Part shown: positions 18,066 through 33,574 of the stretch, piece after piece
Layout of the letters: the number at the start of each line of letters is the position of its first letter
How positions within the stretch are numbered: the stretch's first letter is position 1
Assembly: GCA_964016885.1 (NCBI GenBank)
Contig: OZ024743.1
Location: 342,674,001-342,738,000, forward strand
DNA: 64,000 bases
Direction of reading: 5' to 3'
DNA from: Eledone cirrhosa
Taxonomy: Eukaryota
Notes under the pieces: generated by a model
What the model was told of the DNA's origin: nothing
Seen by the model: only the letters and a program-made list of their open reading frames with translations
Database searches by the model: none
Translations under genes and position numbers: made by a program

Positions 18066-18164
18066 AATATATATATATATATATATATATATATATATAT
18101 ATATATATATATATATATATATACGATATTAAATAAATGGAAACTATATTTATAAAACCATATT

Positions 18165-18230
18165 TATTTCATTATATATATTTCAGGGATATCATATTAA
18201 CAATATGTTATGCCTTCTTCAGACAAAATA
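18165..18230 (-). ncRNA. Minimal type I hammerhead ribozyme motif
   Basis: tattttgt CTGAAGA aggcataacatattgttaatatgatatccct GAAA tatata TA atgaaata: 8-bp stem I, long stem II, palindromic stem III. Confidence 0.8.
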
Positions 18231-18485
18231 CAATATAGACAGTTTTATAGATAAATAGATTTGACATACCGTTCAACATCGACTTGTATTTGAAAAAGTT
18301 GATTTGGCAGTGAAAAATTGTAAACAGAAAAAAGGAAAGAAAGAAAGAAGGAAAGAAAGAAAGAAAGAAAACGAAGAAAAAGAAGAAAAAGAAGAAATGC
18401 ATGCAACAAAATAGAGAGATGGAAAGATAGATAAAGAGAAGAACTTCATGTAAAGAAACAGAGAGAGATGTTTTGGTAAACATCA

Positions 18486-18822
18486 TCTTAACCAAGATGA
18501 TGTTTACCAAAAAGAAGAACAAGTCAACATCATTGGATACCATCAGAGTTGCAGGTATTATATCAGAGTTTTCCTTCTCCTAGAATTCTGCCTTGACAAA
18601 GGCTAAGGGGTCATCTCTCCCGGTGATTTTGGATGGCCATTGACTCTTAAGAGCTCCTTTGCCCTTTGACAGGTTTTGTTTTTAGTCCTGCAGGATGTCC
18701 AAAGTCACCCTTCTCACCAAGAAACCTTGGTGGGGTTGCCAGTTTAGTCGCCAACGACCCGACCATGGGACAGGTTGTACTGGGATACATGTTACCAGTA
18801 GCACCAACTGGTGACCTGACAT
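18486..18822 (-). mobile_element. Same element, copy 3 (5' half only, longest 5' end)
   Basis: Near-identical to 17265-17567 and extends about 30 nt further 5'; (ATGT)n upstream. Confidence 0.75.
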
Positions 18823-18914
18823 AATACATACATACATACATACATACATACATACATACATACATACATACATACATACATATATGCATACATACATACA
18901 TACATGCATACACA

Positions 18915-19440
18915 ATTGCTGGAAACTCTGCTAAGAGTATTGCCATCGCTTGTCAGATTACAGAATATGGTGCACTTTTAGGCTACGGAAAGCCACATAA
19001 ACCTGTAACAGATCCTGAACAAGCAATGCCTGTGATTTGAAGGTTTTTTAAGAGGGGAAAGGCCTTGCACTAGACCAATCCCACTCTCTGAGCATCGAAA
19101 CCACTACCCGAAAAGGAGAACTGGTGAACCTGATTGGATGCTTCCGAAGCGCAGGTTTTTTTTTCAGAGTTTCCCTGTCCTAGAAAGGTGTTATGACAAC
19201 AATTGGGAGCCTTTCACTCCCAGGTGAAATAAAAAGTACTATTTGGATGGCCGTTGACTCTGCTGAGTTCCTCCGCCATTCGCCGGGTCTTGTATTTCAT
19301 CCCGCTGAGTGTCCAGATACCTCCCGCTTCACTAAGCAGGCGGGGGTTGCCGGTTTAGTCACCAACGACCAGACCATGAGACAGGTTGTACTGGGTTACA
19401 TGTTACCAATAGCAAAGAAAATTTTGAACATCGCAACATG
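18915..19440 (-). mobile_element. Diverged relative of the RTE-derived element
   Basis: Shares cccagtacaacctgtctcatggtc.ggtcgttgg.gactaaac.ggcaaccc, gagtcaa.ggccatccaaa and caggcattgctt blocks. Confidence 0.6.
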
Positions 19441-19552
19441 AACAAAAGTGGCACCATCAACATAGCCAACAACAACACCATAATAATAATTATTATTGTC
19501 GTTGTATCTCTAAACTCTCTCAAAATGTTTAGTTTAAACGATGTCAAATAAT

Positions 19553-19921
19553 AATTGTTTCTACTTTTGGCCAGCAATTACCTAGTACATTACTGGTACT
19601 TTATTTAATCGACCCCGTAAGGATGAAAGGCAAAGTTAACCTCGGCGAGATTTGAACTCAGAATGGCAAGGGCCGTAACTCTATGCGTTAAAAAGCATGG
19701 CGTCCGACCCTCTACCGATACTACCAATACTAATTGTTTCTATTTTTGGCACCAGTCCAGCAATTACCCAGTACATTACTGGTACTTTATTTTATCGGCC
19801 CCGTAAGGATGAAAAGCAAAGTTAACTTCGGCGGGATTTGAACTCAGATCATAAAGGGACGTAACTCTATGCATCAAAGCATGGTGTCCGATTCTCTACC
19901 GATACTGCCAATCCACCGCCA
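19553..19921 (-). mobile_element. Two tandem tRNA-SINEs
   Basis: Family sequence repeated at 19553-19728 and 19731-19921. Confidence 0.8.
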
Positions 19922-19934
19922 ATAATAATTATAT

Positions 19935-31389: not shown

Positions 31390-31464
31390 GCTGTGATACA
31401 TATTTCAATGACGACAGTGGCCACGTGATTCCGCCTAACCAATGCCATGATCTCATCATACAGC
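31390..31464 (-). ncRNA. Hammerhead motif with one core substitution
   Basis: gctgt aTGATGA gatcatggca...tgtcgtcatt GAAA tatgta TC acagc; the inverted arm at 31597-31603 retains CTGATGA. Confidence 0.6.
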
Positions 31465-31608
31465 TTTTTACATAATAAGGTTACGTTCTCGAGGCAATCC
31501 AAATTAAAACGAGGAACGGACAAAGATGATGTTAGTGAAGCCTACGTTTTAATTTGGATTGCCTTGAGAAAATAACCTTATTGTGTAAGAAGCTGTCTGA
31601 TGAGATTA
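31448..31608. repeat. About 65-bp inverted repeat (fold-back) abutting (TA)n
   Basis: 31448-31514 versus 31541-31608. Confidence 0.85.
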
Positions 31609-31669
31609 TATAAATATATATATATATATATATACATACATATATATATATATAGTTTTAATACAGATG

Positions 31670-31714
31670 AGATTCTACAGGACTGTTTCATTCTTTAGAA
31701 ATCATCAGGAATCT
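31670..31714 (-). ncRNA. Minimal type I hammerhead ribozyme motif
   Basis: agattc CTGATGA tttctaaagaat GAAA cagtcctg TA gaatct; GUA cleavage triplet. Confidence 0.8.
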
Positions 31715-32391
31715 GGCTTTCCAAAAATAAATGTTGTGGTATTTATATATTTCCATGTGGTAGGAGACGGTGGGTAGTGGGATGGGTAGAGGTCATTGGT
31801 TGAAAGAAAAGGGAATTCATTAAAAGCTAATTCTTTAAGTCTATAGTTTATATTTAGAGTGACAAGGCAGAAAGGATTCTCTAAAGAGGTCCAGAATGGG
31901 GTGCCACTCTTTATTTTTAAGTTTCTCTAACAATGCCTATATTTCATATGTCTATAAGGTGGTTGTGTGTCGCTCATGGTTGATGGATTTAAAGAAAAGG
32001 GAAATTCTTTAAAAGCTAATTCTTTAAAGCTCTACATAGAGTGACAAAAGGTCAAGAGAATTCTATAAACCAGTTCAAAATATTGGGTGACTATCATTAT
32101 TATCATATTTCTCTTAAGCTATATTCCAGGTGTCAACAGACATATTCACATACACACACACACACACACACACACACACACACACACACACACACACACA
32201 CACACACACACACACACATATATATATATATATATATATATATATATATATATACATATATATATATATATATATATATATATATATATATATATACATA
32301 TACACATACATATATATATATACATATACAGATACATATATATATACATATACACACACATACATATACACATATATATATATATACACAT

Positions 32392-32765
32392 GGTGGCTGC
32401 CAACTCGTTTTCGAGTACGGCCACTACTTTATATCCATGTAGGAGAACCCCTACCGATGCGCTGAACGAGTGTGACTTTTTAGTCCAGCCAGCAACTTGA
32501 AAACTCTGGTACAAACACTACACTTGTGACAATTACTGACACATAGTGCTGGGCCCATGGTACCATGTGACGACAAGTACAGAGAGATCTCCAGATATAA
32601 AGCAATGCCTGTGTCGTGAAGCTTTTATAGTGAACAAAGGCACTGCACAAAGCCAGTCCCACTCTCTTAACCAAGATGATATTTACCGAAAAGAAGAACA
32701 AGTCAATAGCATTGGATACCATCAGGGTTGCAGGTGTTATATCAGAGTTGTCCTTCTCCTAGAAT
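32392..32765 (-). mobile_element. Same element, copy 5 (5'-truncated)
   Basis: Near-identical to 17656-18030. Confidence 0.75.
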
Positions 32766-32965
32766 ACACATACATATACACATACATACATACATATATA
32801 TATATATATATATATATATATAACGGCGATGAATAAAAGAATGATAAACTATATATATGTGTTTGTGTCTATATTGTATCTGTATATATCCTGATGTCTT
32901 CCAAAAGTAACGGTCGCATTTTGAAAGGGTATGTCAATATTTATTTATAAAACTGGTATATATTG

Positions 32966-33030
32966 TATTTTATCTGATGAAGGCATACCATAATTTAACA
33001 TGGTATCCTTGAAATATGTATAATGAAATA
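32966..33030 (+). ncRNA. Minimal type I hammerhead ribozyme motif (paralogue of 18165-18230)
   Basis: tattttat CTGATGA aggcataccataatttaacatggtatcctt GAAA tatgta TA atgaaata. Confidence 0.8.
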
Positions 33031-33574
33031 AATATGGTTTTATAAATATAGTTTCCATAAATTAATATCGTATATATATATATATATATATACATACAAA
33101 CATACATATATATATACACATATATAGATATATATACATACATATATATATATATATACACATATTTACATATATATACATACATATAAACACACACACA
33201 CACACATATATATATATATATATATATATATATATATATATATATATATATATATATATATATATATATATATATATATATATATATATATATATATATA
33301 TATATACATATATATTTACATATATATACACATACATATGCATAGATAAACATACACACATACATACACATATAGATATAACACATATATACACATATAT
33401 ATATATATATATATTTCGTTTCTGAATTTGTTTAGCAAGATTCTTTATCTGAAAACGTGTGTTGAAACCGATATTGTTATACTTAGGGAGGCCAATAAAA
33501 GCACACACAAAAACAAGATGGCGTAGGACAGAACAAAGGAGAGGCACAAAAACAAAGAAAATAATCCCCAGTCA

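What the first reader, a model, noticed from the sequence alone, without database searches (positions are those of the whole stretch)
18124..33070. Paralogous hammerhead-ribozyme units with compensatory changes (18165-18230 minus, 32966-33030 plus)
Seen: two roughly 170-nt non-coding units, each ending directly in (TA)n, carry a complete type I hammerhead core (CUGANGA / GAAA / UH). Differences between the copies keep the pairing: a stem I G-U pair becomes A-U, stem II is remodelled but still paired, and only the variable N of CUGANGA changes. Known: Penelope-like elements and retrozymes carry minimal hammerheads with a tiny palindromic stem III that cleave as dimers. Inference: a self-cleaving retroelement family under structural selection in this genome.
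Basis: partly seen in the sequence, partly recalled or inferred. Interest (0 to 1): 0.75.

Follow-up and report, generated by a model that had tools for sequence, protein, structure and literature searches.

The report
Hammerheads of an abundant Penelope-like retrotransposon
Both units are broken-off tail ends of a very common, recently spreading Penelope-type jumping gene, and the predicted self-cutting RNA they carry is a known feature of such elements, so the finding is real but mostly ordinary.

Summary
Both hammerhead cores are real (2 hits in the window, 0 in 100 shuffles). They are not stand-alone retrozymes. They are the 3' ends of two 5'-truncated copies (346 and 184 nt) of a Penelope-like element: 50,301 exact matches to an 18-mer of its end, and 890 copies identical to unit 1's ribozyme. 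Full copies carry a 737-aa RT plus GIY-YIG ORF (11 intact ORFs, 97-99% identical; fold closest to telomerase). Its motifs fit the Hydra clade, for which hammerheads, (TA)n targets and another Octopus family are published. Across 66 copies the core shows only rare variants, N7 takes all four bases, and three stem II pairs change on both sides. The two window copies differ only by one-sided wobble changes and one broken pair. Cleavage is untested; insertions span the cut site and show no pile-up there. Side result: in 17 of 17 inverted insertions one end stops at site A and the other 88 nt further at site B, each just before a bulged hairpin also readable in published Hydra elements. The scan reported this hairpin rule before on other DNA of this genome. 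Verdict: new member of a known kind.

The parts
18124..18469 (-). Unit 1: 5'-truncated copy (346 nt) of the Penelope-like element, 3' end at site A
   Evidence: 40 of 40 scored genome hits are 100% identical over 207 nt; aligns over positions 7-352 with the 3' end of ORF-bearing copies
18165..18230 (-). Type I hammerhead 1 (CUGAAGA core, 31-nt stem II, palindromic stem III, predicted cut between 18173 and 18172)
   Evidence: 890 exact copies of the 56-nt ribozyme in the genome
18067..18123 (.). (TA)n tract joined to the 3' end of unit 1
   Evidence: 8 of 8 homologous host-repeat copies have no TA run here
18471..18512 (.). Short fold-back (19-bp inverted repeat) of host sequence at the 5' junction of unit 1
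   Evidence: read
17930..18065 (.). Left copy of a 136-bp host-repeat segment repeated directly at 18486-18621 (98.5% identical)
18486..18621 (.). Right copy of the 136-bp host-repeat segment
32887..33070 (+). Unit 2: 5'-truncated copy (about 184 nt) from another subfamily, 3' end at site A
   Evidence: 2109 candidates, 40 scored; 95%-identical copies L118 and L132 continue upstream into the element's 3' UTR
32966..33030 (+). Type I hammerhead 2 (CUGAUGA core, 30-nt stem II, predicted cut after 33022)
   Evidence: 10 exact copies of the 55-nt ribozyme
32943..33047 (+). Predicted extension of stem I (32943-32953 pairs with 33037-33047)
   Evidence: folding; the 3' arm lies next to the sampling anchor, so its conservation is partly selected
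33071..33414 (.). TA-rich microsatellite joined to the 3' end of unit 2

Best explanation
The two units are 5'-truncated 3' ends of a high-copy Penelope-like retrotransposon with Hydra-clade motifs, and the hammerhead they carry likely cuts the element's multimeric or read-through RNA, probably slowly and as a dimer or with help from the element's protein. Shown: family size, a 737-aa RT+GIY-YIG ORF, tandem and inverted pseudo-LTRs, (TA)n junctions, two fixed 3' ends (A, 48-49 nt past the cut site; B, 88 nt further), and conservation of the ribozyme core and stems. Inferred: the endonuclease nicks (TA)n DNA; the RT primes internally at A or B, just 5' of a bulged hairpin, and copies through an uncut or re-ligated hammerhead; early stops give solo ends like these two. 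Two-ended events likely use A on one strand and B on the other, on one template. The two window copies are solo, on opposite strands and 15 kb apart, so they cannot form the dimer in cis and are likely inert.
For: Copy counts 21,655 vs 11 control, 50,301 vs 15, 39,263 vs 0. All 18 regions fetched between paired hammerheads hold pieces of one RT-EN ORF. 11 ORFs of 737-740 aa at 97.4-99.3% identity from 13 regions. Model pLDDT 90.7, top fold matches are telomerase RTs. RWR, DKT, CxCX5C, no CCHH, CxxC and CxH match the Hydra definition in PMC8557442 section 11. Core intact in 59 of 66 copies; N7 T43/A9/G7/C7; stem III self-complementary in all but 2 rows. Stem II pairs GC17/AU14, AU18/GC11, UA18/CG14 in 32 rows, 97.5% paired, 0 of 500 shuffles as high. 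Folding favours a dimer over a monomer hammerhead. 17 of 17 inverted pairs have one A and one B end. Two internal RT starts and a protein-assisted hammerhead are shown in vitro for another PLE (PMC11167929).
Against: No cleavage was tested. The hammerhead fold is not the minimum-energy fold (5.7 and 8.6 kcal/mol above it as a monomer). The shared-versus-rare test of core constraint is not significant (0/5 vs 16/19, p=0.07; pair-keeping p=0.25 or 0.046 by threshold). 5' ends do not pile up at the cut site, and copies with a non-cleavable G at position 17 exist. Shuffle controls ignore relatedness. In the wider, not fully de-duplicated set the A/B rule holds in 39 of 46. Pfam finds no domain in the ORF. 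No reference-sequence tree was built, and the 3.8-kb unit is longer than the 'generally <3 kb' Hydra elements.
Confidence: 0.85

Rival explanations
1. Same element, but the hammerhead is kept as a folded RNA landmark or a passenger and its cleavage plays no part in transposition.
For: All insertions span the cut site and 5' ends are not enriched there. Hammerhead mutants did not affect insertion in vitro for PAc (PMC11167929). Craig et al. raise the idea that hammerheads parasitise PLEs. Stem II closes with A-U, U-U or G-U, not G-C.
Against: Exactly the catalytic positions stay fixed while N7 and the stems drift between subfamilies, which is the pattern catalysis predicts.
Confidence: 0.2
2. 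The units are a non-autonomous retrozyme or SINE-like family of about 185 nt with its own fixed ends.
For: All 30 best hits to unit 2 begin within a few bases of the same 5' site.
Against: That set is biased by the query. In the position-ordered sample, 95%-identical copies continue upstream into the long 3' UTR. Unit 1 matches the end of intact ORF copies. No tandem array of the short unit was seen in the loci fetched.
Confidence: 0.04
3. Chance match in AT-rich, microsatellite-rich DNA.
For: The region is 27-38% GC and Rfam finds no hammerhead.
Against: 0 hits in 100 shuffles, tens of thousands of copies against near-zero controls, covariation.
Confidence: 0.01

Closest known systems
Hydra clade of C-terminal EN+ Penelope-like elements, including Hydra-1_Obim of Octopus bimaculoides (Craig et al. 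2021, PMC8557442; passages, section 11 and supplement parts 2 and 53 read)
   Same: Single RT+GIY-YIG ORF with RW(K/R), DKT, CxCX5C, CxxC and CxH motifs and no CCHH; (TA)n targets; type I hammerhead near the 3' end with a palindromic stem III; tail at one end.
   Different: A different family from Hydra-1_Obim (protein and hammerhead differ, compared by eye). Unit about 3.8 kb with a 1.4-kb 3' UTR; stem II of 26-31 nt with a near-invariant C-C mismatch (63 of 66); tail 88 nt rather than 30-40; tens of thousands of copies and many intact ORFs.
PLE hammerheads (Cervera and de la Pena 2014, PMC4209133; parts 1-2 of 4 read, one of two supplements searched)
   Same: Type I, in the pseudo-LTR, palindromic stem III suited to dimers, long stem II, most genomic copies solo and truncated.
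   Different: No G10.1-C11.1 pair and no constant bulge before it; stem I is 8 bp with a long predicted extension.
Poseidon PAc of Anolis (Frangieh et al. 2024, PMC11167929; parts 1-2 of 4 read)
   Same: Two internal RT start sites that define the tail; AT-rich targets; hammerhead upstream of the start sites.
   Different: In PAc the sites lie inside the ORF in one AC-rich stem-loop. Here they lie in the 5' UTR, 88 nt apart, each just before its own bulged hairpin.
Metazoan non-LTR retrozymes (Li, Clavereau and Pollet 2026, bioRxiv 10.64898/2026.07.22.740005, parts 1-2 of 5 read; PMC7229834 seen only as a search listing)
   Same: Type I hammerhead with a palindromic stem III; PLE ancestry.
   Different: Retrozymes are non-coding tandem arrays; these units are solo truncated ends of a coding element.

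Membership tests
Type I hammerhead ribozyme | Core CUGANGA, GAAA, UH in order | tested here: met
   intact in 59 of 66 parsed copies
Type I hammerhead ribozyme | Three helices, with stem I open-ended | tested here: met
   8-bp stem I, long stem II, 2-bp stem III or 8-nt palindrome
Type I hammerhead ribozyme | Self-cleavage after H17 | not testable with these tools
   needs in vitro transcription; no RNA holder listed
Type I hammerhead ribozyme | Tertiary contact between stems I and II | not tested
   the conserved C-C mismatch in stem II is a candidate only
Minimal PLE hammerhead consensus (Cervera 2014) | G10.1-C11.1 pair with an extra base before it | tested here: not met
   first stem II pair is A-U 55, U-U 5, A-C 3, G-U 2, A-A 1 of 66; published Hydra hammerheads also often lack it
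EN+ Penelope-like elements | Telomerase-like RT in a single ORF | tested here: met
   737-aa ORFs; top fold matches are TERT; Pfam silent
EN+ Penelope-like elements | C-terminal GIY-YIG endonuclease | tested here: met
   by motif: Y617, Y630, G632, R641, H645 invariant in 75 homologs; the domain was not fold-searched alone
EN+ Penelope-like elements | Pseudo-LTRs from tandem or inverted partial copies, 5' truncation, tail at one end | tested here: met
Hydra clade | RWK and DKT motifs | tested here: met
   RWR and DKT in the ORF against the definition
Hydra clade | CxCX5C linker, no CCHH, CxxC and CxH around the conserved E and N | tested here: met
   read from the ORF
Hydra clade | (TA)n insertion and canonical hammerhead | tested here: met
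Hydra clade | Placement in the clade on an RT tree with reference PLEs | not tested
Hydra clade | Generally under 3 kb (descriptive, not diagnostic) | tested here: not met
   tandem pseudo-LTRs lie about 3.8 kb apart
Non-LTR retrozyme | Non-coding unit in tandem arrays with a hammerhead in each unit | tested here: not met
   units are solo and continue into a coding element in longer copies
Non-LTR retrozyme | Circular RNA | not testable with these tools
   no RNA holder listed

The most novel reading that the evidence does not exclude
Two bulged hairpins conserved from corals to octopods set two RT start sites on one template, one for each DNA strand. The telomerase-like RT stutters on the UAUA template next to each hairpin and adds (TA)n itself, so this 50,000-copy family seeds or lengthens the genome's TA microsatellites instead of only landing in them.
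Probability: 0.12. Interest if true: 0.75.

Novelty: new member of a known kind. Interest (0 to 1): 0.3.

Why it matters
As a ribozyme it is expected: hammerheads in Hydra-clade Penelope-like elements are published. Its value is as material. It is a very large, young family (890 identical ribozymes, many intact ORFs) with natural subfamily variation, which allows direct tests of open questions: whether PLE hammerheads cut in vivo and why they are kept, and how the RT picks two internal start sites. It is also invisible to Rfam and Pfam, so automated annotation would miss it.

Tried and rejected
Rfam: no hammerhead in the window or on unit 2. Pfam and PDB sequence searches: nothing significant for the ORF (profile search best RT hits E=0.51). 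RNA evidence: no RNA holder listed; laying four contig runs gave no ends or joints of use. Strong stop at the cut site: of 30 copies lacking G12, 13 were truncated or other, with scattered breaks. By eye, about 25-30 of 100 listed x 650 copies start at the cut site versus about 6-7 of 100 x 2,734 at a control position 9 nt downstream, so no enrichment. Fixed-length non-autonomous unit: rejected as search bias. A degenerate second hammerhead at the 5' end of unit 2 was considered by eye and dropped (no stem I, no palindromic stem III). De novo TA addition: 20 of 94 ends had flank homologs with no TA run of 8 or more, several of them artefacts. No usable empty site spanning both flanks was found in 46 two-ended cases, and only the window locus showed a long direct duplication among 90 ends; its two copies differ at 2 sites, so two array units plus a deletion also fits. 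Unresolved. RNA editing: A>G 20 vs T>C 10 in 179 unselected copies, p=0.10, not shown.

Full report
Observation. Both units carry a complete type I hammerhead at the stated coordinates. My descriptor (core, first stem II pairs, stem III pair, stem I of 5 bp or more) found these 2 sites in the 64-kb window and none in 100 shuffles. Rfam missed them. The shared part is 145 of 172 columns identical. Between the two copies the differences are one-sided wobble changes, a loop III change that keeps the palindrome, the N7 change, and one broken stem II pair; there is no two-sided compensation between these two.

Family. The genome is 3.0 Gb. The host is likely an octopod: the best named protein hits are Argonauta hians at 39%; this is inference. 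A 14-mer of the core has 21,655 matches against 11 for the reversed control, an 18-mer of the 3' end 50,301 against 15, and the 35-mer from GAAA through stem I 39,263 against 0. Unit 1's 56-nt ribozyme has 890 exact copies and unit 2's 55-nt one has 10. 40 of 40 scored hits to unit 1 are 100% identical over 207 nt (949 candidates), so that subfamily is very young.

Parent element. All 18 regions fetched between paired hammerheads hold pieces of one ORF. A search with its C-terminal 118 aa gave 55,673 candidates, 150 scored, 15 with open frames of 720 aa or more. Of 13 regions fetched, 11 ORFs of 737-740 aa were compared at 97.4-99.3% identity; one more has a changed start and two are 5'-truncated. 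The layout is pseudo-LTR with hammerhead, 88-nt tail, about 40 nt, ATG, ORF, 1.4-kb 3' UTR, hammerhead. Tandem repeats lie about 3.8 kb apart, and an inverted truncated copy is common. Pfam finds nothing, but the model (pLDDT 90.7, 75 sequences) matches telomerase RTs best, and the YRDD and GIY-YIG residues are invariant among homologs. Unit 1 is the last 346 nt of this element; unit 2 is the last 184 nt of a sister subfamily.

Clade. PMC8557442 section 11 defines the Hydra clade by RWK, DKT, a CxCX5C linker, no CCHH, CxxC and CxH in the endonuclease, canonical hammerheads and (TA)n targets. The ORF shows RWR, DKT, CxCX5C, no CCHH, CxxC and CxH. The supplement lists Hydra-1_Obim from Octopus bimaculoides with its own hammerhead; by eye it is homologous but a different family. 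No tree was built. Six literature searches found no description of this family. The repeat library of PMC13282606 (passages read), one supplement of PMC4209133 and the bioRxiv supplements were not seen and may contain it.

Selection on structure. I took 97 copies from the first 17 Mb of contig 1 by an anchor outside the core. 14 without upstream homology were dropped, 83 collapsed to 72 distinct rows, the two window copies were added, and 8 rows with internal deletions were left out, giving 66. The core is intact in 59 of 66. The 11 invariant positions carry only rare variants, while N7 is T43/A9/G7/C7 and loop III is G34/A32. Stem II pairs 2, 5 and 6 switch between A-U and G-C or U-A and C-G and separate across haplotypes; pair 4 is a C-C mismatch in 63 of 66. 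On the 32 distinct rows with a 31-nt stem II, 97.5% of cells pair and 0 of 500 shuffles reach that; this control ignores relatedness. Against: the shared-versus-rare test gives p=0.07 for the core and p=0.25 or 0.046 for pairs, and the first stem II pair is often broken.

How it likely works. The monomer hammerhead fold lies 5.7 (unit 1) and 8.6 (unit 2) kcal/mol above the best fold; a dimer through the 8-nt palindrome is better than the monomer but still not the minimum. This fits the weak, dimer-dependent PLE hammerheads of PMC4209133 and the protein-assisted one of PMC11167929. Insertions end 48-49 nt (site A) or a further 88 nt (site B) past the cut site and run through it, so the template was uncut or re-ligated. 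5' ends are not enriched at the cut site (counts from the listings are by eye). I infer that cleavage trims multimeric or read-through transcripts and is kept by selection on donor lineages, but is not needed for each insertion. The two window copies are solo and likely inert.

Two ends, two hairpins. In 17 of 17 inverted pairs of the position-ordered sample, one arm ends at A and the other at B; in a wider set with duplicates and possible mis-pairings it is 39 of 46. Arms differ by at most one change over 112 nt in 12 of 17 pairs and are closer to each other than to any other sampled copy in 8 of 17, which suggests one template. A hairpin with a 2-nt 3' bulge follows both sites: 43 of 49 site A rows have 2 or more inner pairs in that register against 1 of 49 in the others; 6 site B rows show the same fold with G-C for A-U (the outer stem was part of the search pattern). 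The same hairpin can be read by eye in Hydra-2_Amil, Hydra-1_Ajap (twice), Hydra-2_Ajap and Hydra-1_Crog (twice) in the supplement. Two internal start sites that define the tail are published for PAc. I reached the A/B rule and the hairpins before reading the scan's notes e1-10309281 and e1-8804728, which report the same on other DNA of this genome; they are not independent support.

The TA question. At unit 1 the 57-nt TA tract sits where 8 of 8 homologous host-repeat copies have none, between copies of a 136-bp segment. This could mean TA was added at insertion. But the two segment copies differ at 2 sites and the same host repeat is also cut next to a microsatellite at 32765, so a pre-existing tract plus a deletion also fits. 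Wider tests found no clean empty site. It stays a low-probability lead.

Verdict. Real, well supported, and a new member of a known kind. Interest 0.3.

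Noticed in passing
L061-L253 (element 5' UTR; absent from both window copies): Twin bulged hairpins just 3' of ends A and B; one A and one B end in 17 of 17 inverted insertions; the same hairpin is readable in published coral, sea cucumber and copepod Hydra elements.
   Followed up: yes
position +9 after the cut site (window 33031; 18164 on minus): 2,734 copies have a non-A base here, mostly G, on at least 7 subfamily backgrounds and in both arms in 9 of 11 pairs that carry it. 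Partly one lineage, possibly RNA editing fixed in DNA; strand asymmetry not significant.
   Followed up: partly
L186/L187 and duplicate L189/L190: One inverted insertion whose two arms both begin at the hammerhead cut site, with a short unrelated filler between them; a single event that could come from a cleaved RNA.
   Followed up: no
window 1709-7832 (minus), also 8884-9553 and 20252-23493: Non-LTR retrotransposon with an open 1140-aa RT ORF (4410-7832; Pfam RVT_1), tandem 3' fragments ending in (TAT)n, and a degenerate inverted copy.
   Followed up: partly
window 27531-28742 (+): Single-exon rhodopsin-family GPCR (Pfam 7TM_GPCR_Srw, 7tm_1) between the two units.
   Followed up: partly
window 52967-58130 (minus) and 62500-63600: LINE with ORF1, endonuclease-like and RT frames, frameshifted (RVT_1 in 54290-55234); a related fragment near 62520-62740.
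   Followed up: partly
window 16897-19414 and 32294-32765: About 660-bp host repeat in tandem with (ACAT)n tracts, next to both hammerhead units; likely truncated ends of another microsatellite-associated retroelement.
   Followed up: partly
window 1427-1707, 13674-13861, 14400-14604, 19546-19928, 37102-37292, 38139-38347, 43196-43404: Dispersed 190-bp SINE-like repeat, at least 8 copies at 77-91% identity.
   Followed up: no
flanks of L009, L027, L088, L127 and window near 37436-37750, 52134-52463: Another (TA)n-associated repeat that also ends at two alternative points and has a similar hairpin in its tail.
   Followed up: no
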